Below, piece after piece: positions 33,744-51,800 of a stretch of 64,000 nt of DNA. A model generated the notes under the pieces. That model worked only from the letters and a program-made list of their open reading frames with translations. It ran no database searches and was not told the origin of the DNA. The position numbers were made by a program, and so were the translations under genes. The DNA is taken from the NCBI GenBank assembly GCA_000004985.1, contig GG738895.1; one strand, given 5' to 3'. The stretch comes from Naegleria gruberi (taxonomy: Eukaryota). Position 1 is the stretch's first letter, and the number at the start of each line of letters is the position of its first letter.

Positions 33744-34139
33744 TTAATCAATATATCTTTGCTTGAAGGCCTTTCCAGTTTCGTAATCTTCAGGAGAAAC
33801 TCTGAAGAATGGAAGGAAGTCTTCTCTCTTCAAGTTTTCAGAATCAAGTTCTTCCATTTCGGAACGAACCCACAAAACGTATGGACGCAAGTAGGCAACG
33901 TCATCTTCTGGCTTAGTCCATTGTTCTCTTGGCAGTCTCTTTTGGTTAACAGACAAGTCAAAAGCACGAGCAAGACGCTTTTCACGAGCACGACGAACTT
34001 CTTCTGGCAATCTGTTGAGAGCTTCAATAATCATTGGATCTTCATCGTTGAGGATATCATCATATAAGAGACCAAAAGTTTGATAACGCATAGAGCTTCT
34101 GTAGGCCAAAGTGACGAAACGATCAGCCTTTTCCCACAT
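33744..34139 (-). CDS. QCR7: Cytochrome b-c1 complex subunit 7 (QCR7/UQCRB, 14-kDa subunit).
   Basis: 131 aa. The conserved core FGLLYDDILNDEDPMIIEALNRLPEEV...AFDLSVNQKRLPREQWTKPEDDVAYLRPY matches UQCRB (KLGLMRDD...EAIRRLPE...LPKEQWTKYEED..YL.PY). A possible extra 5' exon is described in the findings. Confidence 0.8.
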   Translation of the reverse strand: MWEKADRFVTLAYRSSMRYQTFGLLYDDILNDEDPMIIEALNRLPEEVRRAREKRLARAFDLSVNQKRLPREQWTKPEDDVAYLRPYVLWVRSEMEELDSENLKREDFLPFFRVSPEDYETGKAFKQRYID

Positions 34140-34871
34140 TGAGAGATCAGTGTATGGGATTTCAGTGTATTTGGTCCATGGGTTTTGAATTGGGAAACTA
34201 AATGTTGATGTATTTAGTGTTTTTTGTTTTTCATATTGTTGTTTTTATAATTTCCAAAATATTGATGATGGTCAAGTGATAATTGTTTGCGCGGTATTCC
34301 AATATGACAAGAAAGTGTACATCAAGATGATATGTTGACGATGAAATTAATTTCCAACAATAAAACACGACCGTGATGATGATTAAAAATTTTCTCTTCT
34401 TGGCTTTTTCTACTTACGCTTCATAAACGTTGAATTCACCTCTCTTATCAGCAACAGCAACAGTGTCGACAACATCTGGAACAACTGAAGCAGGTAAAAT
34501 TCCTTTAGGGAAGAAGTTCTTGTTGAGGACGAGCATTTCGTTGACGAAACGATAGCCGGTAGCGGCAAGACCACGGAGCATTTTTTTTGAGTTGAAGCGA
34601 TTTTACAATAGTGAGCATTTATGGTTTTAATAGAGAACATAACAGCTGCTAAAGCTAGTAAGAACAATATTATGGCAATCACAACAACAATTGTTTTTCA
34701 ATAATTTCCAATATTCAATGATGACAAGAAAGTGAGAGGGAGTTTTTATTCATATTTTGTTTTAATTAAAACAAAATTGATGAGAGGCTTTCGTTCCGAA
34801 TTTTTTTTTACGTTAGGTTTGTGATTGAATTCCTACAAACACTGGAAGCCTCTAAAAAACAAACAAAAAAA

Positions 34872-37800
34872 ATGTCTTCACGTTATCAAAATGCTGGTGG
34901 AGGAGGTAATTACAATAATAGACAAGGACCACACCAGAAAGTGTTATGTGTAGCTGAAAAACCAGAGGCTGCCAAACAAATTGCCACAATTTTAAGTGCA
35001 GGAAAATTTCAGAGGAGAGAAGGAAAATCCAAGTTTAACAAGATATTTGAATTTGAATATAGAATGAATGGTGTTGTTGTAACAATGTCAGTCACATCGG
35101 TTTTAGGTCATTTGATGGAGTTGGGTTTTGATCCGAAATTAAAATCGTGGACATCTTGTGATCCGATTACTTTGATGGATCCTGCAACACCTGTATTTCG
35201 GAATGTGCCAGAGAAGAATTTAGAAATTCAACAAAACCTAGAACAAGAAGCAAGATATGCCACAAAATTATTGCTGTGGCTCGATTGTGATAGAGAAGGA
35301 GAAAATATTGCATTTGAAGTGATTGAAGTTTGCAAGAAGGTAAATCGAAGCCTTTCCATTGAAAATGATTCAATTCTCAGGGCAAGATTTTCAGAGTTTA
35401 CAGCTGCAGCAATCAATAGGGCAATTAGAAATTTGGAAAGACCAAATGTATTGGATAGTATGGCTGTAGATACGAGACAGGAATTGGATTTGAGAATTGG
35501 AGCCTCTTTTACTCGTTTTCAGTCACTCAGACTCAAAAAGAAGTTTCAAGGAATTACAGCAGATTATATTAGTTATGGACCATGCCAATTTCCAACATTG
35601 GGATTTGTGGTAAAGAGAGATTTAATTATCAAGAACTTTGAATCGGAATCATTTTGGACTTTAAATTGTACACACGATATGGGAGAGGAAGGCAAGGCTC
35701 AATTTCTATGGAAGAGAGGTAGGCTTTTTGACCAATTGACTTGCTTGGTCATTTACGAGTTGTGTGTTGAAGCTCAAAGGGCTAGAGTGGTCAATGTGGA
35801 AAAAAAAAGAAGATACAAATACAGACCAGATCCATTGAATACAATTGAATTGCAAAAATTGGCATCTCAGAAATTGAAAATGGGTTCACACGAAACTATG
35901 AAGGTTGCTGAATCATTGTATAATAAGGGTTTTATCAGTTATCCTAGAACAGAAACTAACAATTACAATCAATTCCAGGATGATGATTTGAAACGACTTG
36001 TAAATGAACACACATCAAATCCAACATGGGGTGGTTATGCTTCAGATCTATTGAATGGAGGTTATCAAAAGCCACCTAGTGGAAAGCAAGATGATAAGGC
36101 GCATCCTCCAATTCACCCTCTCAAAGGTGATTGTAATTCCAATGATTCAAAGGAACAAGCTCTCTATGAATTGATTGCAAGACACTTTTTAGCATGTTGT
36201 TCAAAGGATGCTGTCGGTGCCGAGACTAAGGTTATCATTTCAATTGCCAACGAAGAGTTTACTTGCTCTGGATTGATGGTTGAACAAAAGAACTTTTTGG
36301 AAATTTGGAAGTATGATAGATGGTCGGATAAGAGTATTCCAGTTTTCAATGCAGGTCAAGAGTTTATCCCAACCTCATTATTGATGGATCATGGTGAAAC
36401 TCGTCCACCTCCTCATCTTTCTGAATCAGATTTGATTTCTGCTATGGATTCTAATGGTATCGGTACTGATGCCACTGTTGCTCAACACATTAAAACCATC
36501 CAGGAGAGAGGCTATGTCATCAAGAAAGGAAATAGATTTGAAGCCACCAACTTGGGAATGGCACTCTTGCAAGGATATGATCTCATTGGATACGAATTAT
36601 CAACTCCTAATTTGAGATCAAAGATGGAAAAGGATATGCTTAGTATTTCAAAAGGAGAACAATCCAAGGAAGCAGTCATTCACCAAAGCTTGTCCATGTA
36701 CAAACATGTATATATTCAAATTTGTAAATCAGCTTATTTATTGGATAAGGCGGTACAACAACATTTTCCAACTCTTGGTGAAGGACAGAGCAGAGTTTTA
36801 GGAAGAGGATTTTCACTATGTTCCTGTAAGAATCCAATGGACTTGAAGGAGCAGGATGGAAATAATTTCCTTCATTGTAAAAATTGTAGTGATTCATATC
36901 CTCTTCCTTCTAAATCAGAATATGAAAGTATTGAAGATGTTTGCCCAATTTGTAATTTCCAGATACTTAACATTATCACACAAAAGAACACTTCATACAA
37001 GCTGTGTCCTCACTGTTTCAATAATCCCCCAGAAATTGAAAATTCAAATGAATCTTTTGCTAATGGATTCAAATGCTTTAACTGTACATTTACTGGTTGT
37101 AAATATTCGAGAAAGAAGGATGCCGTAGTAAGGAAATGTCAGAAATGTTCCAACAATTTAGTAGTAAGGCAACGAAAGAATGATACCTCCCTTTATATTG
37201 GATGTAAGGGGTTCCCAAATTGTAAATCTGCAGTGTGGCTTCCAAAGTCAATCGAAAAGGCTGATTTGACAACTGAAAAGTGCAACAGGTGTAGTACTCG
37301 TTCGGATACTGTGTATAGATTGAAATTTACATTTGCCCAAGGAACACTTCTACCTCCAGGTGTTAATAGAGAACATACAACTTGTGTATTTTGTGATCAG
37401 GACTTTGATGAGGCTTTCAATATTAATTTGAATTCCCTTAATGGTGATTCAGGTGGTGCTTCTTCCCATGGAGTGCTTGTACACAACTCTACATCGAATA
37501 ATAGAAACATGCCAAATAGAAGTCCAACAATTGCTGGTGGTGGTTATGGAAATAGAACAAGTCCAGTTGGGGCAACAGGGAGAAATATTGCTGCAAGACA
37601 GAATAATACACCACCACCTAATCAAATGACTTTGGATAGAATGTTGGGCAAGAGAACAAGAGTTGATAATAATAATGGAAATAATAATAGCAACCCACCT
37701 CCTCAAAATTCTTACCAAAGAAACAATACATCTCCAAGAAATCAATTCGGAAACAATCATGGCGGTAGTGGATCTGGTGATGTTGTATGTACAAATTGTA

Positions 37801-37919
37801 GCTCTGCACCAGAAATTTTCACTTGTAAGCAGGGAGAAAACCAAGGGAGACAATTTTACAAATGTCCAAATAAGGATAAGGACGAGGCTTGTAAAAAGTT
37901 TTTCAAATGGGTTGATTAA
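34872..37919 (+). CDS. TOP3: DNA topoisomerase III (type IA) with C-terminal zinc-ribbon and GRF zinc fingers.
   Basis: TOPRIM start VLCVAEKPEAAKQIA. Active-site Tyr motif GFISYPRTETNNY. Multiple C4 zinc ribbons. Terminal GRF finger CKQGENQGRQFYKCP. First ATG at 34872. Confidence 0.85.
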   Translation: MSSRYQNAGGGGNYNNRQGPHQKVLCVAEKPEAAKQIATILSAGKFQRREGKSKFNKIFEFEYRMNGVVVTMSVTSVLGHLMELGFDPKLKSWTSCDPITLMDPATPVFRNVPEKNLEIQQNLEQEARYATKLLLWLDCDREGENIAFEVIEVCKKVNRSLSIENDSILRARFSEFTAAAINRAIRNLERPNVLDSMAVDTRQELDLRIGASFTRFQSLRLKKKFQGITADYISYGPCQFPTLGFVVKRDLIIKNFESESFWTLNCTHDMGEEGKAQFLWKRGRLFDQLTCLVIYELCVEAQRARVVNVEKKRRYKYRPDPLNTIELQKLASQKLKMGSHETMKVAESLYNKGFISYPRTETNNYNQFQDDDLKRLVNEHTSNPTWGGYASDLLNGGYQKPPSGKQDDKAHPPIHPLKGDCNSNDSKEQALYELIARHFLACCSKDAVGAETKVIISIANEEFTCSGLMVEQKNFLEIWKYDRWSDKSIPVFNAGQEFIPTSLLMDHGETRPPPHLSESDLISAMDSNGIGTDATVAQHIKTIQERGYVIKKGNRFEATNLGMALLQGYDLIGYELSTPNLRSKMEKDMLSISKGEQSKEAVIHQSLSMYKHVYIQICKSAYLLDKAVQQHFPTLGEGQSRVLGRGFSLCSCKNPMDLKEQDGNNFLHCKNCSDSYPLPSKSEYESIEDVCPICNFQILNIITQKNTSYKLCPHCFNNPPEIENSNESFANGFKCFNCTFTGCKYSRKKDAVVRKCQKCSNNLVVRQRKNDTSLYIGCKGFPNCKSAVWLPKSIEKADLTTEKCNRCSTRSDTVYRLKFTFAQGTLLPPGVNREHTTCVFCDQDFDEAFNINLNSLNGDSGGASSHGVLVHNSTSNNRNMPNRSPTIAGGGYGNRTSPVGATGRNIAARQNNTPPPNQMTLDRMLGKRTRVDNNNGNNNSNPPPQNSYQRNNTSPRNQFGNNHGGSGSGDVVCTNCSSAPEIFTCKQGENQGRQFYKCPNKDKDEACKKFFKWVD

Positions 37920-38060
37920 TTTATTTCAATACGAACCTATTGTTTCACATTGTCTTAATACCTTCTTGAAAGTGTTTACAAATAACCCAGACAATTATAA
38001 TGCAATTTAATCAAACCACCGTGAAATTAGAACTTTGATCAGAAACAACGAGTAGAAAAA

Positions 38061-38213
38061 ATGTCATCATGTACACAATTCACATCACTTCCCTATGAAA
38101 TTCTTCTTCATATTTTATCGTTCGGCGTTGATAAATGCTCATTAAATCACAAAGTTATTCAATTTATTGCTAATTTTCAATCATTGAACAAGAAAATTTC
38201 ATCAATATTTTGA
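38061..38213 (+). CDS. Possible small F-box-like ORF (50 aa) directly upstream of the Ras-like gene.
   Basis: ATG ORF MSSCTQFTSLPYEILLHILSFGVDKCSLNHKVIQF..., with an F-box-like LPYEILLHILSF. Too short for the ORF track. Confidence 0.25.
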   Translation: MSSCTQFTSLPYEILLHILSFGVDKCSLNHKVIQFIANFQSLNKKISSIF

Positions 38214-38292
38214 TAATTTCTGGTTGGACATATTCGAAAATTGTTATGGAATTTCGCTTCAATCCAACCAGGTGCAATTATTAAAAGAAGAA

Positions 38293-39114
38293 ATGTTACA
38301 AAAGAAAACTCTGGGAAGGAAAATATTGTTGGCGAAGTATATCAAATATAATATTTGGAAAAGTGCTAAATTAAATGAAGATGATCGAATTAGAGTTGTA
38401 ATGATAGGGGATGGAGCAGTTGGTAAGTATAGTTGAGGAATTTTGTTTGACTTTAGAATAGGAAAAAGTGCAATAACAACTTATTTCATTCAAGGAAAGT
38501 TCAATACAGAGTACGATCCAACAATAGGTATTGTATAATTGAAATTCATAAGTTTATTCAAATTTAAAGATGATTTTTATAGAAAGGAAATACAAGTGAA
38601 TAATTTCAAGTCAATTATTGAAGTGATTGACTTGGCTGGTCCTGAAGAATATTATTCAGTTAGAGAATCGCATTGGAGGAGTGGAGATTGTTTCATTATT
38701 GTATGTGACGTGAATAACAGAGATTCTTTGGAGGAAGCTAAAATTTTATTACATCAATTGGTTGTTGTAAAAAATTCAACTAATTTTCCAGTTGTTTTTG
38801 CATTGAATAAGATTGATTTATTGGAATATTTGGAAAAAGAGAAAATAGTGGAAGAATACAAAAGAGATATTGAATCAACCACTTGTCTATATTTGGGAAA
38901 TAGTTCAATACTTGATTGTAGTGCAAGAACAGGAGAAAATATTAATTATTTATTTGATGAATGTGTTAGGCGAACGAGGTTTAATTCAATTGGTAACTTA
39001 AAGCTTCTGAAAGATGTAATCAAATATGATTCAAATTTTATTGAAATTTGCCTTAATGGTAATGATGATGTGGAAAATAATAAGAAAAAAGCAAAGAAAT
39101 GTTTTATTATGTGA
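38293..39114 (+). CDS. Ras-family small GTPase, three exons, with a polybasic tail and CAAX box. The catalytic Gln is replaced by Pro. The 5' start is uncertain (TTG at 38224 or ATG at 38293).
   Basis: Exons ..38422, 38462..38527 and 38570..39114. The introns are GTAAGT..AATAG (38423..38461) and GTATTG..TAAAG (38528..38569). G1 GDGAVGKSA spans intron 1. G3 DLAGPEEY, where canonical is DTAGQEEY. G4 NKID. G5 CSARTG. C-terminus KKKAKKCFIM. Confidence 0.75.
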
Positions 39115-39344
39115 TTATGGAAAACATGAATAACAACATTGTTACGAAAAATAAGAAGGTTTACTCTATACTTGGGCGCATACAGAATAATTGTAATGTT
39201 AACTGTTTTCCGTTGGATTTCCATCTACAGTAATTCAACCTTGTTGCACAATCAACTACAGTAACAACATTCACTCACACCAACACACAGAATTCCGCTT
39301 CAAAAAAACCACCTCAATTCTCACTCAAAAACAACACAAAGAAA

Positions 39345-39986
39345 ATGGGTAACATAATGGCTTTATCTGTTGTTGCTATGCAACAAGGAATGGTCTCCAA
39401 GAATGTAACACCAGTATTATTCGCCTTTGGATTTACATCCTTGGTTTTCCTTATCAAATACTTGGTACAGGAGGTAATCATGTTGGTCATTCAAGGTACA
39501 AAAGAGGCCGAACCAAAAACATTTGACGACATTAAGAAGGTTAACTTGGATGAGCTTCCTAAGGAATTGGCCAATAACAAACGTTCAATTTATGAGAGGC
39601 TGAGAAGAATTAAGAAGGAAGACTTTGAATTTATTGTCATGTTCGTTTTTATTGCTGCTTCGTATCTTATATCCACAAGTGGTGCTTCCAATTACACCTT
39701 TACATCAACTTCAAAATCCACCGAATCAAATGTTAATACATTAATAGTTTGGAGTGATCTTTCAATTGCCAATTCAGTAATTGGATGCCTATTCATTGTT
39801 GCATTCTTTGTGTTGAGAGTTATCAGTCTCGTGATGATATTTGTACAATCTAAAACCCTCATTCAGAACATTATTAGAATAGTGACCTTTGTTTACCTTG
39901 CACTTTTTGGATTGTTTGTACTTATTATGATATTCATGTTTAATTTTTATGTTCAGGTCATTGTACCTAGCAAAGTTAATGCTTAA
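39345..39986 (+). CDS. Hypothetical multi-pass membrane protein (213 aa).
   Basis: ATG ORF with four or more hydrophobic helices. No known motif. Confidence 0.45.
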   Translation: MGNIMALSVVAMQQGMVSKNVTPVLFAFGFTSLVFLIKYLVQEVIMLVIQGTKEAEPKTFDDIKKVNLDELPKELANNKRSIYERLRRIKKEDFEFIVMFVFIAASYLISTSGASNYTFTSTSKSTESNVNTLIVWSDLSIANSVIGCLFIVAFFVLRVISLVMIFVQSKTLIQNIIRIVTFVYLALFGLFVLIMIFMFNFYVQVIVPSKVNA

Positions 39987-40108
39987 TGGTTGTTTTATAT
40001 TTTAAATCTAAACTAAAAACTAGTTTTTCACTTGGTTTACAATAATTTTAAATATTATTAAATATTCAAGTTTTTTATTAAAAACAATAAAAAAAACAAG
40101 CACACGAT

Positions 40109-40528
40109 ATGATGTACGGAATACGGTTCATGAATAGAAATCAATCTCCAAGCCATAAGGAAGATCGTGCCCAATATAACCAACCATCAAATGAGAGTTT
40201 GATCACGGAGAAGAAATTATTCATGATTGAGTGCAAGATTGAACTTCTAAATATTTTGCAATCGTCATCAATTGATCATCAACCGACAAATGGGAATTTA
40301 TTAACAAATAATTGTAATAGTAATACTAATAATAATAATTCATCATCATTGTCATTATCAGCTGAAGGGAGAATTAAATATTATTCGGATCAGTTGGAGG
40401 AGGCTAAGAAGATTGTGCAAGATTTAAAGTTTATCCAATTGGTTATGAATGAAAGTAATTTGGATGTATTGGAACGATTAAAGATTCAAGTTGTGGATCC
40501 AGAGGAAGAAGAAATGCAGAAAATCTAA
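40109..40528 (+). CDS. Hypothetical Asn-rich protein (139 aa).
   Basis: ATG ORF with low-complexity N-rich centre and a predicted coiled-coil C-terminus. Confidence 0.35.
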   Translation: MMYGIRFMNRNQSPSHKEDRAQYNQPSNESLITEKKLFMIECKIELLNILQSSSIDHQPTNGNLLTNNCNSNTNNNNSSSLSLSAEGRIKYYSDQLEEAKKIVQDLKFIQLVMNESNLDVLERLKIQVVDPEEEEMQKI

Positions 40529-40677
40529 ATTAAATTTTAGCATATTGAAAGAATTATTTGTAAACTCAGTAATATTAACTCCTTTTGCCAACTATCTCTT
40601 TTAACAAAATGCTAAAATTTCTATTGGAACTTGGTAACCAAGTGGCCATTAAGGGATTATTTTCATTCTGAATGTAT

Positions 40678-40749
40678 TCCCGTGTAGTCCAATGGCTAGG
40701 ATACCTGGCTTTCACCCAGGAGGTCCGGGTTCAATTCCCGGCATGGGAG
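40678..40749 (+). tRNA. tRNA-Glu (anticodon TTC).
   Basis: TCCCGTGTAGTCCAATGGCTAGGATACCTGGCTTTCACCCAGGAGGTCCGGGTTCAATTCCCGGCATGGGAG. Identical to the minus-strand copy at 30831..30902. The downstream T-run AATCATTTTGTTTTTG is shared. Confidence 0.9.
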
Positions 40750-40816
40750 AATCATTTTGTTTTTGAATTGTTTTGAATTGGTATTCATTTAGAGATAAAC
40801 AGAACTCTCTTAAAAA

Positions 40817-41685
40817 ATGTCTAGATCTACTTGTTCACCCTCTCTTGCATTCTCTCTCAATTTTAATCAGCTTGATGAAATTCTTGTGGATCAACAACCT
40901 GAAACAGTGGAAGATGTAGAAAATTATGAACAACCTCCAATCAGTGGATTTTCAATTCATGTTCCGAGTGATAGTTATGTTTTTGTATGGAATGATTGTC
41001 TTTGCCTTATGAATAGAACAACACGAAAAGTATTCAAACAGATGGAGAGTCCGTTGGTCCAATAGTTAATTTAATATTGCATAATGACCAGATTATTGTG
41101 ATGCATTTGGATGGAGTAATCACCTTACTAGATGTGAAGCAATTAATTGAATCTGATGAATTTGATAAAGCCAAGATATGGACAAGCCACACTTCCTGTC
41201 ATGACGCACTAATGGCAGCAATTATGGGTGATCATGTCTATATACCAGATAAGAAATTGGGAGTTGTAGTTTTGAATTTAAGTAATGGAGCAAGAAATGA
41301 AGTAATGGAACAATTGGTACCACAAATTGAGGATGGTATTGGAATTGTGTTTGCTTCAGAAACTGAAATGATTCTCTCCAGGAGTGGATCTTTGGAATTG
41401 TGGACTAGGCCATCGTATGATATTTCTGAAAAGTGGAGTTTGCAGGTGAAGAGAGAGGCTGCCAAGGAGAGGGGTTACTTGTTCCTATTCAATATGGCCT
41501 ATGAGAGGAGTAGTGAGCTACTCTATGTATTGGATTGTGATATAATGAGAGTGAGTGTCATTGGTAAGAATACTCTGGATATTATCAAGACATTTGGAGA
41601 GGATTTGAATTTGACTTCTATTTGTATTGATGAAGAGAAGGGTCATCTTTACTGTTGTTATAATAACATTGTAATTTACAATTAA
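40817..41685 (+). CDS. Hypothetical protein (beta-rich), probably two exons joining the two track ORFs.
   Basis: Candidate 62-nt intron at 41030..41091 (GTATTC..GACCAG, phase 0) joins frame 40817 to frame 41077, giving a 268-aa product ...LMNRTTRK|IIVMHLDGVITLL.... The alternative is a single-nucleotide frameshift. Confidence 0.45.
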
Positions 41686-41770
41686 TACTTTGATAATAAA
41701 ATCAAAATAATACCATGTACAATAAATATTCAAAATTTACATTTGAAATACTGTTAATTTTTTATTAATC

Positions 41771-41940
41771 ACGAATTTCTACGCAACTAACCACAAATTG
41801 CTACACATCAAAACGCAATTTTAAAAATATTCTAAACCGCAAATTCCTATGGAAATCAAGCTAAACAATTCGCTGTTTGCAGAACAGAATTTGCGATTTA
41901 AAAAGAGGAAAATTTGCGGTTAGTTCCGTAACAATTCGTA
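41771..41940. repeat. Nested imperfect inverted repeat with multiple GCAAATT/AATTTGC cores, between convergent 3' ends.
   Basis: Outer arms are 41771..41800 (ACGAATTTCTACGCAACTAACCACAAATTGC) and 41910..41940 (the reverse complement with about 4 mismatches). Inner arms are CCGCAAATTC at 41837..41846 and GAATTTGCG at 41888..41896. Confidence 0.6.
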
Positions 41941-41965
41941 CTTTATAAAGAATTAACAGTAAGCC

Positions 41966-43347
41966 TTAATCAGAAAAATGAAAGAAGACATCTGCAATCT
42001 TCCAAGCATTCCTAAAATTGAAATATTTAGAAATATTATGTTGATGAATTGCAATAATCAATGTATCGCTTGTTAATCCAACTTTCAAAACTGAGGTGGA
42101 TGCATCAATATTAGGAAAGAGCTGTCTCCACTTGAATTCAGTATATCTACCATCTGAGCTCAGCAAATTATTATCTCCTCCAATAAATACTGAATTGTCT
42201 CTAGTTAAAATTAGAGAATTGTATCCTCCACAGACAATATCCTGGATATTATTCAAATTAAATGAGTCTAGTATTTTGGGGCCTCTATTCACATCATATG
42301 TAAAATTAGGTGATATTCCAAATTGTTTAAAATTGAAATAGCCAAAAACGTAAATTTTTTGTGATTGTGTTAAAACTGCTACAAAAAACAATCCTGGTCT
42401 AACATCTGTCACAATTTCATGATCTAGATTTGGAACGCGAGTCCAATGGAAAGAATCGCTGGCCTCAATCAAACCATTCGCACCATAAGATCTATCTCCA
42501 ACTCCATAAAGATGGCCATTCTCAGTCAATATAAAGCTAGTATTATATGTACAATAAACTCTCTTAATCTTGTTTGGAATGTGATCGATATTGGAGACAA
42601 CCCATGAATCCGAATAATTATTAGTATTCACTCCCAGTTGACCATCTATAAACCAATCTAAATAATCCAATAATTTGTAAACCACTTACAATTCTGTCCA
42701 TATCCATACACCTTCCCCTTGTCAGTCAGCATTAAATTATGAGTTGATCCACAGGAAACATCCACAATTTTCTCTTCTTTAGTATCGAATGGTAAGGTTG
42801 TAATCTTTTTCAAATCATTTGGAATTTCACTCGTCGAGTCTGACATGTAAACAGCTCCACTACTAGTCCTGACTAATAAAAACCTTCTAAATCCAACCAT
42901 ATCCACCTCCTCATCAAACACCAATTTGTACAATACACATCCATCTGATATATACTTCCATACATATAACGTCCTTCTCGATTTACCAACCAACACAATA
43001 GAATCACCACACGAAATCTGCGTTACACGTTCATCAATTTCAAAAACCCAATATTGTGGAGTTTTTATCATCACTACAAGGCTTGATTCTCCATTTGTTG
43101 TTATTGGTCTTGAATATTCTTTTAAAACTTTTACATTCTCCAGATGATGATGATTAATATCATTGCTAATCATGTTGGTAATTGTTGTAGAATGATCAAC
43201 TTCCATTCCTTTCATCAATCCATTATTATCGGTATTGATCACGAATTCTTTTTGTTCGAGCTGGAAGATTTGATAGCCAGGTTTTGATGCTAAAAGATTG
43301 TCGTGCTCTTTTTCGTTGCATGGATTGCTGGCTGATCGTGTGAGCAT
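41966..43347 (-). CDS. RCC1-repeat (beta-propeller) protein, two exons.
   Basis: Exon 1 is 43347..42690, then a 32-nt GTAAGT..TTTAG intron at 42689..42658, then exon 2 at 42657..41966, for about 449 aa. RCC1-type repeats VSCGSTHNLMLTDKGKVYGYGQN, NGHLYGVGDRSYGANG and CGGYNSLILTRDNSVFIGGDNN. Confidence 0.65.
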
Positions 43348-43405
43348 TTTTTTTTTCTTTATTTTAAATACTTTACAATTTATTAATAATAGTATTTTTT
43401 ATTTA

Positions 43406-43918
43406 TTATAAAATGGAATTTATTAAAAGAGAAGAGAAATGAGCATTATGATAAATGTCAAGAAGGCAACTGGTGTTACTGAGATGGCACTTGAAACAGT
43501 TGAAGGAAGAGCAGCTCTGGTCAATCTGCATTGGAACTTTACTGGTTGACATTGGAAGAAGAGATGAACCACATTCCACACTCATTCTTTGACAGAAAGA
43601 TTTACAAATATTCATCGTACTTGTGGTTGAATTATAATACTTTTGAGAAATAGATGGCACACACTTTCCACACTGAGTAGCAGCCAAATATTTACGACAG
43701 AGGGTAGAGGCAGATTGACTTAACATAGTGCTCATAGCAGAAATCTGACTCACTTCAAAATCAGTACAACAAGAGGAAGAACGGATGTTAATACCACAAG
43801 TAATATCACAATTAGGACAAGCAAATGAACTAGTACCACCCTTATTTGGGCATGTTTCAGCCATGATGAAAGTGACAAAGAGGAATGTGCAAGCTAACGC
43901 ACACAATAGTTTGAACAT
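43406..43918 (-). CDS. Small secreted cysteine-rich protein (170 aa), possibly GPI-anchored.
   Basis: N-terminal signal peptide MFKLLCALACTFLFVTFIMA. About 18 Cys. Short hydrophobic C-terminal tail. Confidence 0.45.
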   Translation of the reverse strand: MFKLLCALACTFLFVTFIMAETCPNKGGTSSFACPNCDITCGINIRSSSCCTDFEVSQISAMSTMLSQSASTLCRKYLAATQCGKCVPSISQKYYNSTTSTMNICKSFCQRMSVECGSSLLPMSTSKVPMQIDQSCSSFNCFKCHLSNTSCLLDIYHNAHFSSLLINSIL

Positions 43919-44056
43919 GCTGCTGTTGTTGTTGTTTTGTTTTTTTCAATTCTTGTTAGGGCTTAAAATATTGACTGAATTTAAGGCACAATTCAGTAAG
44001 AGTAACTTTTTTGGATTTCTTGTTTACAAGCATCCGACCAATCATTGAATTTAGCT

Positions 44057-44081
44057 CCCGTATTCAAAAAGTGAATACGGG
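44057..44081. other. Perfect GC-rich 9-bp hairpin (CCCGTATTC-aaaaagt-GAATACGGG), followed by a T-rich tract, in the PCS 3' region.
   Basis: The complementarity is visible directly. It is embedded in AT-rich intergenic DNA about 150 nt downstream of the PCS stop. Confidence 0.5.
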
Positions 44082-44234
44082 GGCTTTGTTAATTTTCACC
44101 AAACATGTGCATGCAAATTTTTCACACACTTATTTATTTGGTGGTCCTTGCTTTACTGTACAAGATGCAAAAGGTTGTTGAGGGTGCTTACTTGTGCTTG
44201 CATGTGCATTCGGAATCACGCATTACATTAATCG

Positions 44235-45725
44235 TTATTGACAAGTGCTCATTTCAATAAGAGCTTGAATTTGTTTGGTGATTTGGCTAATGTTGGATTC
44301 CAAAGCAGTTCTGCAGCATTGTGAAATGCACATGTCTCCGAATTGATGCTTCAACTTGCTAATAATTGCTCGTAAATTGAGGTCCTCAAATAATTCATTG
44401 GGCATGCTGATCAACAGAATTGCAATCACTATGGATTTGTTTCTATCCTTTTCAAATTCCATAATTTCCCTAAATAATTGGTATTCCTTTAAATTAGTAT
44501 ATATAGTAGTAATCTTGTCGTTCCATAAAGTCTTAATCAATTCATACTCTTCAGATTTAATATCTTTGTCTTCGTTGATTAATAAAGGCTCTACCAAGTC
44601 AAAGATGACAGGACTCAGTACTTGGACAATACTTTCAAAGAGAATCGTTTGAGTGAGGGATTCATTATTGACCTGATTCATTTTGGTAAAGTACACCTCA
44701 GTAATATTCCTAGTGAGGGTCATCAACTTGACAAGAGTTTCAGACCATTTTTCCTTGACAACAACTCTATAACAAATGGCATTTTCTGGCTTTTTAACTG
44801 CTTCTTTTTTAATTACAACAAATCCTCTAGATAATCCTGTTGAAGAATCTATAGGATACAATGCCTTCCACAATAAATCAAGTTTCACCCAATGAGGTGG
44901 ATATTTAAATCTTGCAACATCTAGAACTAGGACCATATCATTTTCTGCATTATAGGCAGCCAAAGGAGAAAAATGTCCACTGCAATATACATTATTTCAA
45001 TGTAAATTTCAATGAAAAATAAAACCTACGTTCCAGTTTGTCCCAAAGTAGATCGATCATAGCTCACAACAATAAATGATGGATCATTATCAATTTTTGA
45101 CAAATCATTTGATTCTATTGAATCAATAATGAATTTCCTAAATTCCTCCAATGAAGAATCCTGAGGTCTATAAACATGACAATCAGCTCCATTACATTTA
45201 GCCAAACAAGCAAATTGTCTCAAAGTAATTCCCTCCTTCTTTACAACTTCCAATGGAACACAACAATCAAAAAACTCCTCAGTAAACCATCTCCAAGGAT
45301 ATTTCCAAACTCTCTTCGGATCAATTTTCAAAGCATTCATAACATTTACAAGTGTTCCCAATCCACAATCTTTAAAATCATCAATCATTACCAATTAATA
45401 TTATTAATAATACCATTAAATCATCAAACATACAAGAAGGCTCAGCTTGTGTATGAAATTGTTCAATTAGCGGAAAGAACGAATGAGTATTTCCTTCCAT
45501 CAAACTCTGGGAAAATAATTTCCTTCCTTCGAGTGAGGAAAAGGCGACCAAATGCGAAGGTAATTCTCTTTGATAAAAGCCTTGTTCTCTCTTTTCCGAT
45601 TGTTTTGAATCCGATAATACTAATGATGAAGATGTTGTTGTATTTAATGATAAAGTTGTTGTTGAAGGAGATAATGATGATGAACAACCCTTTTTCTTAC
45701 ATGACGATCCACATTGTGCGCTCAT
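44235..45725 (-). CDS. PCS: Phytochelatin synthase (glutathione gamma-glutamylcysteinyltransferase), three exons.
   Basis: Exons 45725..45434, 45369..45030 and 44979..44235. The introns are 64 nt (GTATGT..AAAG) and 50 nt (GTAGGT..GCAG). The catalytic triad context is conserved across the splice junctions: AEPSY|CGLGTL (Cys), QTGT|GHFSPLAAY (His), [16 protein letters not shown] (Asp). About 458 aa. Confidence 0.8.
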
Positions 45726-45856
45726 TTTTTTTGATTTGATTTTTCCTTTCAACAACTCCGTTTAATTCTTCCTTTTTCGTCACTCATTTTGACTCAAGTT
45801 ATTCTAAAGTTTGAAAATCTATATTACTTGAATGGAAGAAAATTAAATTTTAATTA

Positions 45857-48800
45857 TTATTTAAAAGGTTTTTGTGCTTGTCTAATAATCATGTATAAAT
45901 GTGAATCTTGGAATGAATCATTCCTATCATAGATTGATAACAATTTTTCAATTAATTGAATTGGATCAAAATTGCATTGAGATGGTGGTTTTAACAGTGA
46001 GTGATAATATTTTGAATTGTAAACAATTTTTCCATTTTCATCAATATCACCTCTTCCAAAGGCTTCCATTTCTATTATATTATGAGGTTTTGGGGCCACG
46101 GATAAGAAATTGCAAATAATTGATTGTTCCCATTCATTCTTGAAATATAATGAACATGAAAGAATGAATAAATCTGGAAGGAATCTATTAAGTTTTGCAA
46201 TTCTAGTCACTCTATCAAATTGTGAATTCACAGAAGGGATAGAAAGTGAAAGATTATCATATAATAGTTCATCACTGATATGAATTCTTCTACTGAATCT
46301 ATTCAATGTGAAATTAATTCCTTTTCCATTTTCATTAATAAATTTAAATATTTGATTGGCTTCGTATGGACATATTAAAATTATATAATTATCATTCAAG
46401 GAGTGAACAAACCAATCTATTGGTCTCTTGTAATAATCAATTTTAGAGTCAATTGTTGAAATGACAACATTTTTCATACTTTTGGTTGCATAAATGTTAC
46501 CATTCCAAATATTAGGGAGATTGTAAAGTGCAAAAGTATCAGATAATAATTCTTTAACATTTAACATGGTGGAGATATTTGGCTTGAATCCCATAATTAG
46601 CAATTTCAAATTAGTGTCCAATTCAGGAATACAGGGTTCTAATTGAGGAGGTCTAAATACTTGCTTTTCTTCTTCTAATTCATTTTCCAATTCTCTTTCT
46701 TGTTCTTCATTCAGTGTTTGTGAGAATATTTCCATAGTATTGGTTGACAGTTTTTCAATAATTTTTGAAATATTACTCTCAAATATTGTACAAAGATTCT
46801 TTGTGTGTAACGATCTAAAATGTAATTCTTTCAATTTAAATATTTGTGATAATAATTGCTTCTTTCGTTCTAATCCATAAAATGATTGTAATTCAAGTAT
46901 TTCATCTTCAATATATTTGTCATAGTATTGTTGAATAAGTATTGATTTTCCTAATTCTTGATTTAACCATAGTTTATGACTGTAAATCAATCCTTGGACA
47001 GCCCATTGTAATAAATGATCCATTTCCATTTGTTTTGTATTGAAATGTGTCCAGTTAATTATTTCTCTTGTATTGACAGTATTATTCTCTGATAATTTCT
47101 TAATATGTGAATCAACTTCTTTGGATGCCCAGAATGAAACGGTGTGTCCATTCACAGAACATAATTGTCTCATTCTCATGCATGCTTGAACGAACCTTTC
47201 ATTTGAAAGACCATTTCCTAAAGTAACAGCAGCTCTTGTACTTTCTGGAAATTTAATATCCGTCCCTCTTGTATGTACGTCATCTATGTATGTAACACAT
47301 TGTTCTAACTTGTTTTTATATGGAGACAAATCAAAATTAGTAACATGATTATATCTATCTATGACAGTGAGTTCATCATTATCATTAAAATATATTGCAG
47401 CATGGATTTCGTTTGGATTTGAAATTTCTAACCAATATTGTGCCAATTCTTCATTTGTCATTTCTAACATTAGTGCTCCAACGTCTAGTAATACTCTTGT
47501 TGTTTTTTGTGAATTAGCAATAGATTGAATAATGTCTTTGCATGATTGTTCATTTGAAATAACGTGATATTCTTCATTCCTCAAAATGAATGATTCAACA
47601 TTTTTAGAAGTATCTAGTAATTCTTCTAATTCATTTGATTGAATCGAAATTGGTAATAAAAATGATTTTGTGCCACTGAAACCGCTTGATTGATGATTCT
47701 TTTGATTACTTAAATTCCAAGATGAGGAAGTCAACTTTTTAGGAAATTGTTTGCATTCTTTTGGAAATACACACTTATTTAAATAAAAGTCAATAGCTGC
47801 CATTGAATATTTAAAAAATGGAAAAACTACTTCCATTTTTTGATGATAATCGGATAAGTTAATATTTGATAAAGATTTCAATTGTTCAGGTATTTGATTC
47901 TGACCTTCTTCGACCCATTTACAATATTCCTTTTCTGGGTCATCCAATGATAGCAATTCTTCGAATATATATTCAAGTTGAGAATTATCTAATCCACTAT
48001 AATAATAGCTTAATAATGTTAATAAAATTGCGATATCTGGATGACCATATTCAGATCTTTCAGATGGTACGTCTTTGGCTCTAAATGGAACGGCAATTGA
48101 TCTGTTAAAACCAACTCCATAATTAACTCTCCATCTTCTTTCTAATACAAGCTCCAAGGTTCCATACGCTAATAATCCTCTTAGTATTAATAATGATTCC
48201 CACTGGCTTTCTTTAGAATATTGTCTAATTAATTTCAATGTAGAATCATTAATTTCTTCACATGTCAAAAATTGTTTAAATAAAAGTCTATGTTCTGGCT
48301 TGATAGAAATGAAAATTCCTTTCAAGTTTCCATCAAGAATATCATTAACAATATTTTCTACAAGCAATTCAAAAGCTTTTGAATCTAAAATTCTCAAATG
48401 AGGAAATGAATGTTCAAAATTATTCATTTCCCTAAGTTCGACACAAGACGACCCAAATGAATCGAATAAACCTTTAGAATGTTTCTTAATTGATCTAAAT
48501 ACTTTTTGTAAAACATTCCAACGTTGATCTCTACCATCAATTTTTAATTGATTTCCAATTGTATAAATTAGTTGATACCTGGCATGAAGGATTTCATCTG
48601 ATTCATCTAATAAATCTCTACAATTATTTTCTAACCAATCTTGAACTTTAAATAATTGTTGAAAAAGGTCCGATTTAGATTTGATAGATTCAATACATTT
48701 CAATTCAAATGATAATCTATATTCGGGAACTGTGATGAGAACGCCTCTAGCTTTCATACAATTCGAATATAATGTTTGCAGTAACTCACAATCTAGTACT

Positions 48801-51800
48801 TGATGATCTCTATTAAATGGTGTTACTAGTACTGGTTTATCCAATATTCCACCCAATTTGAATCTTAGTGAGTTATAATTTGATGACAGTAGAGATTTTA
48901 AAACAGTTAATCTAACTAATTGATTTTTGTTCTTTCCAAGTTCTAATATTAACATTGGAATGATTACAGATGATTTACCCTCTCCCATATTAAATTGCTG
49001 CAATATATATGATTAAATGAAAGAAATTAATAAATTATACATACCATTACCATATTATTATGTGAATGAATCATATGATTTGCAACTCTAACTTGAACTG
49101 GTCTAATCATTATATTCATTTCTATTTCTAATATTAACCAATATGGATGGTCAGATGGCTTCCAATTTTCATGACCCTTGTTTTCTAATTCTCTTGAATG
49201 AAGTGTTGTCATTTTGGAATACTCTAAAGCTTTTAATCTTTCAGCTCTTTGCAATAATGTTATTAAAACTCCATAACAACCAACTAAATTTTTCAATTTT
49301 TGATTAGTTTGGTCATCTAATAGTAATTTTAAAATATTGGTCTTTGTTACTCGTGGCCATAAGCCAGCAATATAGAGTGCTTGATTGGTGGTATTATCAT
49401 TTGGATGTAACACTTTTTGTATTAAATCTTCCATTTCCATATAAAGAATTTCAACATTATCATCAACTTGGCCAGTTTCAAAGACTCTAGTTGAGAATTC
49501 AATAATATTACTACTCAAATTATTTAGTTGATCAAAATAATCAACCAAAAAGGTCCATTTAGGTTTGCATGGACAATCTTGAATTTGTTTGAAAATTAAA
49601 GGGAATCTACTTGGTATGGTGTATGATGGCAAGTTATTCACCATAACTTGCAACTTTTCAAGGTAAGTATGGAGTTGATAATTTGCTTTCCTTTCCTCAA
49701 ATATAGTTCTCATCTTTTCCTTGTACGTATCCAGAATTAGACTGGATGATTCGAATGAAATATAAATACTATTAGAAGTTTTAAATGTTGAATAGGTATT
49801 AAGTAAATTATTGCTCATTTTTAACTTTTCCTCTGCGATTCTGTTATCATATTTATCTTGATTTTCTCTTGATAGTGTAACATATAAATCTCTGAATGAC
49901 CTTTTATGGTTGTCCAATATTTCTTGTATAGTATATGCATATACATCACATTCCTTGATATTCCTTTCCTTCTCAGAATGTGGATATGAGTACATGATTT
50001 TATCCTTATTAAGATAAATTAACCCTAATAAATTAACTAGCGTCTCATCAAATTCAAAATACATCAGCATTGTTAAAAAAATTATTAATTTTCTTTTAGA
50101 AAATTGTTGAATTTCATCGGTCAGTTTTGAAAAACACGACTTGATATCAACTGTCATCCAACCTTCAATAGTTTTCAAATCTGTTTTGCAATTCTGTGTT
50201 GAATTGATAATAGATTTTATACTATTCAAAGGTCCAAACATATTGTTCTTCAAAGAGTAACATAATTGTCTGCACTTATTGATTTCTTTGGCGTCGGAGT
50301 GAGTTTTCATCCAAAAACTAGAATCAGAGGATTCACTGTCTATTTCACAATCTTTAGAGTAATAGTGAATATCTTTAAAATACGCCTTCCAATAGAGTAA
50401 ATTTAGTATTATTTTTACTCTTTTCAATACTAATAGCTGAAAATAATTTTGAATTTTCTTTCTTAATTCGTTCGCATAATATCATATAGGAGTCTAATTG
50501 TACAATAGACGATAAATTATTATTCCATGTCGTTACTTGCATATCAGTTAAATGTTCTGGATAATAAGATCTCTGTGGAGATAATGTCGATATTAATTCA
50601 AGTAATTCAATCTCAAACTCTTTCATTGGAATATGTAATTGATAACAACGTTTAGATTTCAAGATAGATATTGCAGCTTCATATCCACACAATTTGGTGA
50701 ATGGATCAGGTAAGAAGTAAGAAGTACATCCATGCAAATATGCTAAATACAACCAACTTGCTAAACTTTGCTCTGCTTCCAATCTTTCCAGTTGTGCATT
50801 GACAGTATAGGTGAAGAAGGGAGGAGATGAAACAGAATTTAAATCAATATCTACTTTTACATGACCACTAATGTCTCTAGCTACTTGAATATCTCCATTA
50901 GGAATTACTAATACTGTATTTTTCGAATAGTTATCAACTAATTTGAGCCCTTTTTGCAATCCAATTAATGTTCCTATTTCAAAGTTAGTGGATACTGTCA
51001 TTCCAAATTGTTTACAAATAAATTGTGAGTAATTATTGGACAGAATAAATATTAATCCTTTTCTAGGTAATTCAACAAAAAGAGTATTATCTTGATAGTA
51101 AGAATGTACATGTTCATCTTTTTCAATTCTGCTCATAATTTTCATTATTTCTGTAAATATTTTACTTCTATTGTCTATAAAATATTTCTTATCCTTCATA
51201 TCTAATAACAATCTACTATTCAAATTCAAAGTATAATGAACCTTTGAGAAATTGGTATCTAAGAAAAACATTGGTCTAAATAAAATACAATTAGATTCCT
51301 TATCAATCCAATGACCATATTTTTCTTTGAGTTGAAAAGGTAAATCTTTTGCAAAATATTCATGCGGAAAATAAACTTTTTCCTTATTGTCCTTGGTTAT
51401 TTCACTGATAATTAAAATTTCTTGCTCGATTTGTGATATTAATTTAAATTTGAAAAAGCTTCCACCAAATGTGTTCTTAGTCACAAAGGACTTGAATTCT
51501 GATCCTGGTTGTACATCAAGGACTATTTAGTGTCAATACATCAACATTCTTCATATACTTACCCATATTTTGAAAAATTCTTTGATATTCATTGCTTTTT
51601 GTAATTATTTCTGGTAGCCGTCCAATAGGAGCATGATTTATCAATAATGTTCCGTTAATAATGTTAACTTGGATGAGAACTTCGTTAAATTTAACATAAT
51701 ACCAATTTTCAGATTCTGCATATTGATGCCATTTCAAATTCAATTCTTCTAAATTTCTAACTTCACTCCATTTTTCTTTCAGGAAAATGTTTAATTCAGA

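What the first reader, a model, noticed from the sequence alone, without database searches (positions are those of the whole stretch)
41771..41940. Nested inverted-repeat element with five GCAAATT cores between convergent gene ends
There are 30-nt outer arms, ACGAATTTCTACGCAACTAACCACAAATTGC and its reverse complement with about 4 mismatches. There is an inner inverted pair (CCGCAAATTC / GAATTTGCG) and an extra ACGCAATTTT. Together they form a long hairpin or cruciform of about 170 nt in the 280-nt gap between the 3' ends of the 40817 gene and the RCC1 gene. Possible identities are a structured ncRNA, a MITE-like footprint, a bidirectional 3'-end or termination element, or a cluster of sites for a GCAAATT-binding factor.
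Basis: seen in the sequence. Interest (0 to 1): 0.5.

Follow-up and report, generated by a model that had tools for sequence, protein, structure and literature searches.

The report
Palindromic repeat element between two Naegleria genes
A 213-base mirror-symmetric DNA element carrying eight evenly spaced copies of one short motif sits between the tail ends of two Naegleria gruberi genes; it is real, but most likely the remnant of a small mobile DNA element, which is an ordinary kind of thing.

Summary
The window is Naegleria gruberi nuclear DNA. The inverted repeat runs from 41749 to 41961 (213 bp), with 51-nt outer arms that are 84% complementary. It is by far the strongest local inverted repeat in the 64 kb (score 31; next best 16). 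It folds far better than shuffled sequence (z about -8 as RNA on either strand, -6.9 as DNA).

The element is a quasi-palindrome centred at about 41855. After an 18-nt terminal sequence, each half carries four copies of AAYCRCRAATT spaced 21-24 bp apart. That makes eight mirror-arranged sites, not five. All five exact matches to this consensus in the 64 kb lie inside the element.

The ends read TA|CTGTTAATT...AATTAACAG|TA. Removing the element would leave a 69-nt convergent gap, which is within the usual range here. The seven other convergent gaps show no hairpin.

Best reading (about 0.5): a decayed, non-autonomous foldback or MITE-type DNA transposon with a TA duplication, whose phased motifs are transposase-binding sites. 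The decisive test, other copies in the N. gruberi genome or an empty site in a relative, could not be run because no available collection holds that genome. A host protein-binding array or a hairpin-RNA role remains possible. Interest is modest.

The parts
41749..41961 (.). Whole quasi-palindromic element (213 bp; 209 bp if the terminal TA dinucleotides are a target-site duplication). The symmetry centre is about 41855.
   Evidence: inverted repeat I1. (gapped alignment of the left half against the reverse complement of the right half). (the four site pairs have centres at 41855, 41855, 41854.5 and 41856). GC is 30%, against 16% in the adjacent 63-nt spacer.
41749..41750 (.). Left TA, a candidate target-site duplication.
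   Evidence: Read directly from the sequence. No other direct repeat of 2-10 bp flanks the inverted repeat. The chance that both flanks are TA is about 0.005 a priori, but TA is palindromic and also simply extends the inverted repeat, and a 2-nt complementary extension has a chance of about 0.08.
41960..41961 (.). Right TA, a candidate target-site duplication. It lies 4 nt from the RCC1 stop codon.
41749..41799 (+). Left outer arm (51 nt). It consists of the 18-nt terminal sequence TACTGTTAATTTTTTATT followed by sites L1 and L2.
41911..41961 (-). Right outer arm (51 nt, 84% complementary to the left arm). Read on the - strand it consists of the terminal sequence TACTGTTAATTCTTTATA followed by sites R1 and R2.
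41767..41777 (+). Site L1, AATCACGAATT (exact match to AAYCRCRAATT).
41789..41799 (+). Site L2, AACCACAAATT (exact match).
41811..41821 (+). Site L3, AAACGCAATTT (2 mismatches).
41835..41845 (+). Site L4, AACCGCAAATT (exact match). It lies in the left arm of the inner inverted repeat, 41830-41846.
   Evidence: (I4).
41846..41866 (.). Central 21 nt between sites L4 and R4. It forms the loop of the hairpin.
41867..41877 (-). Site R4, AACAGCGAATT (1 mismatch).
41888..41898 (-). Site R3, AATCGCAAATT (exact match). It lies in the right arm of the inner inverted repeat, 41887-41903.
   Evidence: (I4).
41911..41921 (-). Site R2, AACCGCAAATT (exact match).
41933..41943 (-). Site R1, AAGTACGAATT (2 mismatches).
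41077..41685 (+). Context, not part of the element: last exon of the upstream + strand gene, an N. gruberi 'predicted protein' with no Pfam family. Its stop codon is 63 nt left of the element, and AATAAA hexamers at 41695 and 41721 precede the element.
41966..42685 (-). Context, not part of the element: last exon of the RCC1-repeat gene. Its stop codon is 4 nt from the right end of the element, so any 3' UTR must enter the right arm.

Best explanation
The element is the remnant of a small non-autonomous cut-and-paste DNA transposon of foldback or MITE type. It inserted at a TA dinucleotide in the short spacer between two convergent Naegleria gruberi genes.

Each end consists of an 18-nt terminal sequence, where cleavage would occur, followed by four copies of an 11-bp motif (AAYCRCRAATT). 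The copies are spaced about 22 bp apart, which is two helical turns, so all would face the same side of the helix. In this model they are binding sites for the transposase of a longer autonomous relative elsewhere in the genome or now lost. Because the whole element is just two such ends facing each other, either strand can fold into a long hairpin.

What is shown: the anatomy, its statistical significance, its uniqueness within 64 kb, and the absence of hairpins at other convergent gene ends.

What is inferred: the mobility, the TA duplication, the binding-site role of the motif and the assignment to a superfamily.

A side effect follows from the geometry. The RCC1 gene's 3' UTR must begin inside the element, so the element probably now supplies part of that mRNA's 3' end.
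For: 1. Terminal inverted repeats of 51 nt at 84% complementarity, far beyond chance.
2. The whole 213 bp is mirror-symmetric. The four site pairs share one centre, 41855 +/- 1, and have matching spacings of 22, 22, 24 on the left and 22, 23, 21 on the right.
3. The motif is specific to the element. All 5 exact AAYCRCRAATT matches in the 64 kb are inside it, against 0.89 expected. For CGCAAWTT, 4 of the 5 matches are inside it.
4. Between the two halves the cores are conserved at 37/44 positions and the spacers at 24/46 (Fisher p = 0.0015). In the inner half only the sites and their phase are kept, not hairpin complementarity. That is what binding sites predict and what an RNA stem does not.
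5. The ends read TA|CTG...CAG|TA. TA is the only direct repeat that fits. The reconstructed empty site is TTTGAAA-TA-AGCCTTAA.
6. Gap size. The eight convergent ORF gaps in the window measure 8, 34, 36, 102, 117, 153, 280 (this one) and 359 nt. Without the 211-bp insert, this gap would be 69 nt.
7. The element has 30% GC, embedded in a spacer of 16% GC.
8. It is an isolated feature. The other seven convergent gaps give fold z-scores between -2.3 and +1.8.
9. Literature. Foldback-type transposons have inverted repeats built from tandem sub-repeats, and in Galileo these carry extra transposase-binding sites (PMC4079207). Stowaway-type MITEs always duplicate TA, and several have unusually long inverted repeats (PMC3814204). 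N. gruberi has about 5% repeats (PMC6125883), and few of them can be classified as known TEs (PMC12344493).
Against: - No second copy was found anywhere I could look. That covers the window, two heterolobosean loci, and the metagenome, viral, prokaryote, plasmid and phage collections. None of these contains the N. gruberi genome, so the test has almost no power, but multi-copy status, the defining property of a transposon family, is unproven.
- No transposase gene lies among the 34 large ORFs of the window, and no autonomous partner is known.
- The TA 'duplication' is palindromic and could simply be two more bases of the inverted repeat (chance about 0.08).
- The core-versus-spacer contrast is partly circular, because the cores were defined by their similarity among the eight units.
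- The gap-size argument is weak. One other convergent gap is longer, at 359 nt.
Confidence: 0.5

Rival explanations
1. It is a host cis-acting protein-binding array, not a mobile element. Eight phased, mirror-arranged sites for a cellular sequence-specific DNA-binding protein would form a nucleoprotein complex. Possible roles are a replication origin, a boundary or insulator, or a barrier against transcriptional collision between the two convergent genes.
For: The motif is specific to the element, phased at 22 bp and arranged around a single centre. The inner cores are conserved better than the inner spacers. The element is single-copy in everything that could be searched.
Against: - If the motif were a general host regulatory site, it should also occur elsewhere in 64 kb of gene-dense DNA. 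There are no exact matches outside the element.
- The 18-nt terminal sequences, which carry no motif but are 16/18 identical between the two ends, have no role in this model. They are what transposon termini look like.
- No other convergent gap in the window has anything similar.
Confidence: 0.18
2. Its function is at the RNA level. Transcribed as the 3' UTR of the RCC1 mRNA, or by read-through of either convergent gene, it folds into a long hairpin. That hairpin would either direct 3'-end formation or termination for both genes, or be diced into small RNAs as an hpRNA or miRNA-like precursor. This reading can coexist with a transposon origin.
For: - Both strands fold very stably: -59 kcal/mol on the + strand and -73 kcal/mol on the - strand, z about -8.
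- The strand that reads in the same sense as RCC1 is the more stable one. Three of the four transition mismatches in the arms become G-U pairs on that strand (read from the arms).
- The RCC1 stop codon is 4 nt from the element, so the right arm at least must be transcribed.
- Naegleria encodes candidate Dicer and Argonaute homologues (PMC13315211).
- MITE-derived hairpins are known miRNA sources in plants (PMC8862332).
Against: - There is no Rfam match.
- Hairpins are not a general feature of convergent 3' ends here.
- The inner half keeps the motifs and their phase but not complementarity. The spacers are about 50% identical and contain indels, so there is no sign of selection for the stem beyond the outer 51 bp.
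- The 3:1 wobble bias is not significant.
- The + gene has two AATAAA hexamers before the element, so it probably terminates without it.
Confidence: 0.15
3. It is a neutral local rearrangement. A short 22-bp minisatellite (about 4 units) together with adjacent sequence was duplicated in inverted orientation by a replication template switch (a foldback inversion). The resulting palindrome has since decayed and never had a function or mobility.
For: The mirror symmetry, the internal tandem periodicity and the single-copy status all fit. Foldback inversions through single-strand hairpins are a documented mutational process in yeast (PMC7467729, title and abstract only).
Against: - It does not explain why the cores are conserved better than the spacers between the halves (with the circularity caveat).
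- It does not explain why the element is GC-richer than the surrounding spacer.
- It does not explain why the palindrome ends exactly at a TA/TA pair.
- Long perfect palindromes are unstable, so persistence until 16% arm divergence had accumulated is not expected without some constraint.
Confidence: 0.12

Closest known systems
Stowaway-like MITEs (non-autonomous Tc1/mariner derivatives), especially the long-TIR forms such as C. elegans Cele1, Cele2 and Tc6
   Same: They are small (about 200 bp) and have no coding capacity. They consist of little more than two inverted ends, are flanked by TA, insert next to genes, and can fold into a hairpin. [quoted passage not shown]
   Different: No family, copy number or autonomous Tc1/mariner partner could be shown. 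The terminal sequence (CTGTTAATT...) was not compared with any Naegleria transposase-encoding element. Four phased sub-repeats per end is more than the one or two binding sites per end that I recall as typical of Tc1/mariner elements (my own knowledge, not tested here).
Foldback transposons (Drosophila FB, Galileo, Tetris)
   Same: The inverted repeats are built from an outer unique domain followed by tandem sub-repeats, with almost no middle domain. In Galileo the sub-repeats carry additional transposase-binding sites (PMC4079207).
   Different: Described foldback elements are hundreds to thousands of bp long and have TSDs of 7-10 bp (8-10 bp for Tetris, PMC4079207). This element is 213 bp, its sub-repeats are 22 bp long, and no 7-10 bp direct repeat flanks it.
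Transposon ends with arrays of about 22-bp transposase-binding sites (phage Mu attL/attR, Tn7 ends). This is an analogy of mechanism only, from my own knowledge.
   Same: There are several similarly sized binding sites in each end, oriented inward, on which a multimeric transpososome would assemble.
   Different: Those are prokaryotic elements with different target duplications (5 bp). There is no sequence similarity, and no homology is claimed.
Kolobok and MuDR-type (MuDRF) DNA transposons, reported in Naegleria
   Same: They are DNA transposon superfamilies documented in this genus (PMC9587614, PMC3164196). TTAA tetranucleotides lie 5 nt inside each end of the element.
   Different: Kolobok needs TTAA duplications and 5'-RR...YY-3' termini. 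Here TTAA is followed by TT, and the inverted repeat continues 5 nt outside the TTAA. MuDRF has 9-bp duplications, and none is present here.

Membership tests
MITE (generic: miniature inverted-repeat transposable element) | Small size (less than about 800 bp) and no coding capacity | tested here: met
   The element is 213 bp, and no ORF of 60 aa or more lies wholly within 41749-41961. One 71-aa mechanical ORF (41518-41733, - strand) ends before the element.
MITE (generic: miniature inverted-repeat transposable element) | Terminal inverted repeats | tested here: met
   The arms are 51 nt and 84% complementary. The inverted-repeat score is 31, against at most 16.5 in the controls.
MITE (generic: miniature inverted-repeat transposable element) | Flanking target-site duplication | tested here: inconclusive
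   Only TA/TA fits. Because TA is palindromic it cannot be told apart from a 2-nt extension of the inverted repeat.
MITE (generic: miniature inverted-repeat transposable element) | Multiple dispersed copies sharing sequence identity within the genome | not testable with these tools
   The N. gruberi genome cannot be reached. Exact-product look-ups failed. The window, two heterolobosean loci and all public collections available here were negative.
MITE (generic: miniature inverted-repeat transposable element) | Insertion polymorphism or an empty site in a related genome | not testable with these tools
   The related Naegleria-like contig L025 ends 1.2 kb past Topo III, before the orthologous region. 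Willaertia (L026) is not syntenic there.
Stowaway-like / Tc1-mariner-derived MITE | TA target-site duplication | tested here: inconclusive
   TA is present on both sides. The ambiguity is the same as for the generic TSD test. The criterion comes from PMC3814204.
Stowaway-like / Tc1-mariner-derived MITE | TIR sequence shared with an autonomous Tc1/mariner element of the same genome | not testable with these tools
   No Naegleria transposon sequences were available, and there is no transposase in the window. The criterion comes from PMC3814204.
Foldback transposons | Inverted repeats composed of an outer domain plus internal tandem sub-repeats, with a minimal middle domain | tested here: met
   Each half has an 18-nt terminal domain followed by four roughly 22-bp units, and the centre is 21 nt. 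The mean pairwise identity of the units is 0.47, against 0.277 +/- 0.021 in controls. The definition comes from PMC4079207.
Foldback transposons | TSD of 7-10 bp, as in FB, Galileo and Tetris | tested here: not met
   The flanks ATTTGAAA and AGCCTTAA share only 2 of 8 positions. No direct repeat of 3-10 bp is present (and my own reading of the sequence).
Kolobok | TTAA duplication with 5'-RR...YY-3' termini | tested here: not met
   The TTAA at 41754-41757 is followed by TT, and the inverted repeat extends 5 nt outside the TTAA. The criterion comes from PMC9587614.
Known structured RNA families (Rfam 15) | Match to a covariance model | tested here: not met
   In 38000-46000, at E <= 1, the only matches are the tRNA and two chance sub-threshold hits elsewhere.
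General hairpin-type 3'-end or termination signal (as in the Mimivirus 'hairpin rule'; my own knowledge) | Hairpins recur at most gene 3' ends of the genome | tested here: not met
   The seven other convergent gaps give z-scores between -2.3 and +1.8. The window has no other strong local inverted repeat.

The most novel reading that the evidence does not exclude
The element is not a transposon relic but a host-maintained device. It would be a mirror-symmetric array of eight phased binding sites that can extrude as a cruciform or hairpin. It would sit exactly where two convergent transcription units meet and act as a bidirectional barrier or 3'-end element, or as a replication origin, or as a dedicated hairpin-RNA locus feeding the Naegleria RNAi machinery. 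Cis-elements for termination, origins and small-RNA loci are essentially uncharacterised in Heterolobosea.
Probability: 0.12. Interest if true: 0.6.

Novelty: new member of a known kind. Interest (0 to 1): 0.3.

Why it matters
If the transposon reading is right, this is an uncatalogued foldback or MITE-type family in Naegleria gruberi. Most repeats in that genome are still unclassified (PMC12344493). The AAYCRCRAATT motif with its 22-bp phasing would be a ready handle for finding the family and its transposase. It would also be a concrete case of a mobile element supplying the 3' UTR of a host gene, the RCC1-repeat gene, in a deep-branching eukaryote. That is useful for annotation but not surprising. 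If it instead proves to be single-copy and conserved across Naegleria species, it would be one of the first candidate cis-regulatory or structural DNA elements described in Heterolobosea, where terminators and poly(A) signals are still unknown (PMC13315211).

Tried and rejected
1. **Other copies in the window.** blastn-short with the element and nhmmer with a two-arm profile and an eight-unit profile found only the element itself.

2. **Reaching the N. gruberi genome or other strains.** Exact-product look-ups for P0001, P0003 and two neighbouring window ORFs all returned 'not on record'.

3. **Orthologous loci.**
   - The upstream gene has no homologue other than itself.
   - The RCC1 last exon gave only a 55% identical fragment on a 679-bp contig.
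   - Topo III orthologues gave a Naegleria-like contig that ends too early (L025) and a non-syntenic Willaertia locus (L026). Neither has arm, unit or inverted-repeat similarity.

4. **Pattern scans of public collections.**
   - TACGNAACTAACCNCAAATT gave 10, 9 and 5 hits in the metagenome, viral and prokaryote collections. None extends beyond the pattern, so they are chance.
   - The phased pair AATTYGYGRTT-N10-13-AATTYGYGRTT gave 20 viral hits, all same-strand tandem arrays. The two inspected in detail were a coding repeat in a giant-virus helicase ORF and a simple 12-bp direct array. None is mirror-arranged.
   - The terminal 29-nt pattern gave 0 hits.

5. **blastn against plasmids and phages.** No match.

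6. **Rfam.** No family matched.

7. **Transposase nearby.** Pfam found none in any of the 34 large ORFs.

8. **Alternative target duplications.** Direct repeats of 3-10 bp are absent. TTAA (piggyBac or Kolobok) was rejected. I also compared the ends with Helitron termini (5'-TC...CTRR-3', recalled from my own knowledge) and they do not fit.

9. **Poly(A) hexamer analysis.** AATAAA lies within 100 nt of the stop codon in only 7 of 28 genes, against an 8% background. It is too weak a signal to place transcript ends.

10. **Literature on Naegleria MITEs or transposons.** Nothing specific was found. The N. gruberi genome paper is not held in the library.

Full report
**Source and context.** The window is nuclear DNA of the amoeboflagellate Naegleria gruberi. 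The ORF that ends at 41685 is 100% identical to an N. gruberi 'predicted protein' on a 333,733-bp scaffold. The Topo III gene at 34821-37919 is likewise 100% identical to the N. gruberi protein. The window has about 33% GC and is densely packed with ordinary cellular genes: adenylate cyclase, helicase, SelO, G-alpha, Topo III, a Ras-like GTPase, phytochelatin synthase and a DUF6606/DUF3638/DUF3645 giant gene. None of them is transposon-related. The finding lies in the 280-nt gap between two convergent genes. The + strand gene stops at 41685. The - strand RCC1-repeat gene has its stop codon at 41966-41968.

**Checking the observation.**
- The inverted repeat has 51-nt arms, 41749-41799 and 41911-41961, which are 84% complementary. 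The nested inner pair is 41830-41846 / 41887-41903.
- It is the strongest local inverted repeat in the 64 kb by a wide margin. My ungapped score is 31, against a maximum of 16.5 in 1000 Markov simulations and 16 in all 455 other real 280-nt windows.
- Folding gives z = -8.0 (+ strand RNA), -8.2 (- strand RNA) and -6.9 (DNA). No shuffle did as well.

**Anatomy.** A gapped alignment of the left half against the reverse complement of the right half shows that the whole 213 bp is a quasi-palindrome.
- Each half starts with an 18-nt terminal sequence: TACTGTTAATTTTTTATT on the left and TACTGTTAATTCTTTATA on the right, 16/18 identical.
- Four copies of an 11-mer with consensus AAYCRCRAATT follow in each half.
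- On the + strand the sites start at 41767, 41789, 41811 and 41835 (spacings 22, 22, 24). On the - strand they start at 41943, 41921, 41898 and 41877 (spacings 22, 23, 21).
- The four left/right pairs share one centre, 41855 +/- 1.
- Five of the eight sites match the consensus exactly. These are the only exact matches in the whole window, where 0.89 are expected and 0 of 100 shuffles reached 5.
- The eight 22-nt units average 47% pairwise identity, against 27.7 +/- 2.1% for random 22-mers.
- Between the halves the cores match at 37/44 positions and the spacers at 24/46 (Fisher p = 0.0015). The outer spacers are well conserved. The inner ones are not and contain indels. The inner half therefore preserves the sites and their phase, not base-pairing. 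This contrast is partly circular, because the cores were defined by similarity among the units.

**Ends and setting.**
- The element reads TA|CTGTTAATT...AATTAACAG|TA. No direct repeat of 3-10 bp flanks it, so TA is the only candidate target-site duplication. Because TA is palindromic, it may equally be two more bases of the inverted repeat.
- Removing 211 bp would leave a 69-nt spacer. The other convergent ORF gaps in the window measure 8, 34, 36, 102, 117, 153 and 359 nt.
- The element has 30% GC, against 16% in the 63-nt spacer beside it.
- The + gene has AATAAA hexamers 10 and 36 nt after its stop codon, before the element.
- The RCC1 stop codon is 4 nt from the right end of the element, so that gene's 3' UTR necessarily begins inside the element.
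- AATAAA is not a reliable signal in this genome sample. It lies within 100 nt of the stop in 7 of 28 genes, against an 8% background. I draw no further conclusion about transcript ends.

**Search for relatives.**
- Inside the window there is no other copy by BLAST or profile search.
- Pattern scans of the metagenome, viral and prokaryote collections returned only chance hits without extended similarity or unrelated same-strand tandem arrays.
- Plasmid and phage BLAST searches were negative.
- The upstream gene has no detectable homologue, and the RCC1 exon gave only a short fragment.
- Topo III orthologues led to a Naegleria-like metagenome contig. It shares the SCAMP-MRG-Topo III order but ends 1.2 kb short of the region. 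They also led to a non-syntenic Willaertia locus. Neither contains anything similar.

**Mechanism.** The best-supported reading is a decayed non-autonomous cut-and-paste transposon of foldback or MITE type. In this reading the 18-nt termini are the cleavage ends, and the four phased 11-mers in each end are transposase-binding sites. With a period of two helical turns, the sites would lie on one face of the DNA and could assemble a multimeric complex. The element inserted at a TA between the two genes, and its hairpin-forming ability is a by-product of having two ends and almost nothing else.

This accounts for all of the following:
- the unique terminal domain
- the mirror symmetry
- the confinement of the motif to the element
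- conservation of the sites without conservation of the stem
- the TA flanks
- the contrast in composition
- the absence of comparable structures at seven other convergent gene ends, z from -2.3 to +1.8

It also agrees with published descriptions. Foldback elements have inverted repeats that contain tandem sub-repeats, and in Galileo these provide extra transposase-binding sites (PMC4079207). Stowaway-type MITEs always duplicate TA and sometimes have long inverted repeats (PMC3814204).

I put this reading at about 0.5, because multi-copy status, an empty site and an autonomous partner are all untested.

**Rivals.**
- *A host protein-binding array (0.18).* It explains the phased sites. It does not explain the motif-free conserved termini, or the absence of the motif from the rest of 64 kb.
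- *An RNA-level role (0.15).* This could be a 3' UTR hairpin, a terminator or a small-RNA precursor, and it is compatible with a transposon origin. It has in its favour the very stable fold, the forced transcription of the right arm, and candidate Dicer and Argonaute genes in Naegleria (PMC13315211). Against it, there is no Rfam match, no general hairpin rule in this window and no sign of selection for pairing in the inner half.
- *A neutral inverted duplication of a 22-bp minisatellite (0.12).* It fits the symmetry but not the core-versus-spacer contrast or the TA ends.
- *Pure chance.* Excluded.

**Comparison with known families.**
- *Mechanism.* Functionally it looks like a long-TIR Stowaway-like MITE or a miniature foldback element.
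- *Generic MITE.* Size, lack of coding capacity and TIRs are met. The TSD test is inconclusive. Copy number and insertion polymorphism are not testable here.
- *Foldback elements.* The architecture is met, but the 7-10-bp TSD is not.
- *Kolobok and MuDRF.* Kolobok needs a TTAA duplication with 5'-RR termini (PMC9587614), and MuDRF needs a 9-bp TSD (PMC3164196). Both families are known from Naegleria, and neither fits.
- *Filing.* I therefore file it as 'works like a foldback or MITE-type transposon end pair, superfamily undetermined (TA-targeting, possibly Tc1/mariner-like)', not as a proven member of any named family.

**Verdict.** This is a real, statistically exceptional and neatly organised sequence feature, and most likely an ordinary one: a relic of a small DNA transposon in a genome whose repeats are poorly catalogued (PMC6125883, PMC12344493). 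I class it as a new member of a known kind, with interest 0.3. The most novel reading not excluded is a host-maintained palindromic binding array or hairpin locus at a convergent gene junction. I give that a probability of about 0.12 and an interest of about 0.6 if true. A single BLAST of the element against the complete N. gruberi assembly, plus inspection of the orthologous spacer in N. clarki, would settle the matter.

Noticed in passing
window 30830-30903 (-) and 40677-40750 (+): Two tRNA-Glu(TTC) genes with identical 74-nt sequences lie 10 kb apart on opposite strands. Their flanks are unrelated (24/100 and 39/100 identity), so they are dispersed tRNA gene copies and not a segmental duplication.
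   Followed up: partly
window 45857-54842 (-): Four consecutive - strand ORFs carry DUF6606 (51516-54842), no domain (50375-51484), the start of DUF3638 (49027-50427), and the rest of DUF3638 plus DUF3645 (45857-49003). They look like one gene of about 3000 aa split by introns or frame changes.
   Followed up: no
window 29887-30657 (-): This ORF has a hit to the fungal-type Zn(2)-Cys(6) binuclear cluster domain PF00172 (E 1.5e-5, 25.4 bits against a cut-off of 21). I think of this domain as mainly fungal (from my own knowledge, not checked), yet here it appears in a heterolobosean.
   Followed up: no
window 40817-41685 (+) and 41966-43347 (-): The reference annotation looks incomplete around the element. 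The annotated protein P0001 (157 aa) covers only the C-terminal part of the ORF pair 40817-41065 plus 41077-41685. The last exon of the RCC1-repeat gene gave no 100% hit in the protein collection, so that gene may be unannotated.
   Followed up: partly
L025 (ENA ERZ2098899 NODE_339, 16.5 kb, coverage 1.7): This metagenome contig comes from a Naegleria-like organism (Topo III 70% identical). It has the same SCAMP - MRG - ... - Topo III gene order as window 31633-37919, so local synteny is conserved at that divergence. Other contigs of the same assembly could hold the orthologue of the element's locus.
   Followed up: partly
window 28338-28696: This is the only convergent gap longer than the one studied (359 nt). 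It has a weak AT-rich inverted repeat exactly at its two edges (28 nt, 71% complementary) but no folding signal (z -0.9 and -0.35). It is probably low-complexity chance.
   Followed up: yes
L036 1398-1576 (IMG/VR UViG 3300031223_000005): An AT-rich 100-kb viral contig has eight 24-bp tandem repeats that match the site pattern by chance. They encode a D-N-D-K/E-I-C-D-F/L peptide repeat at the N-terminus of a 943-aa ORF. I read this ORF as a helicase-like protein with an intein-like insert from its translation alone, with no domain search. It is unrelated to the finding.
   Followed up: yes
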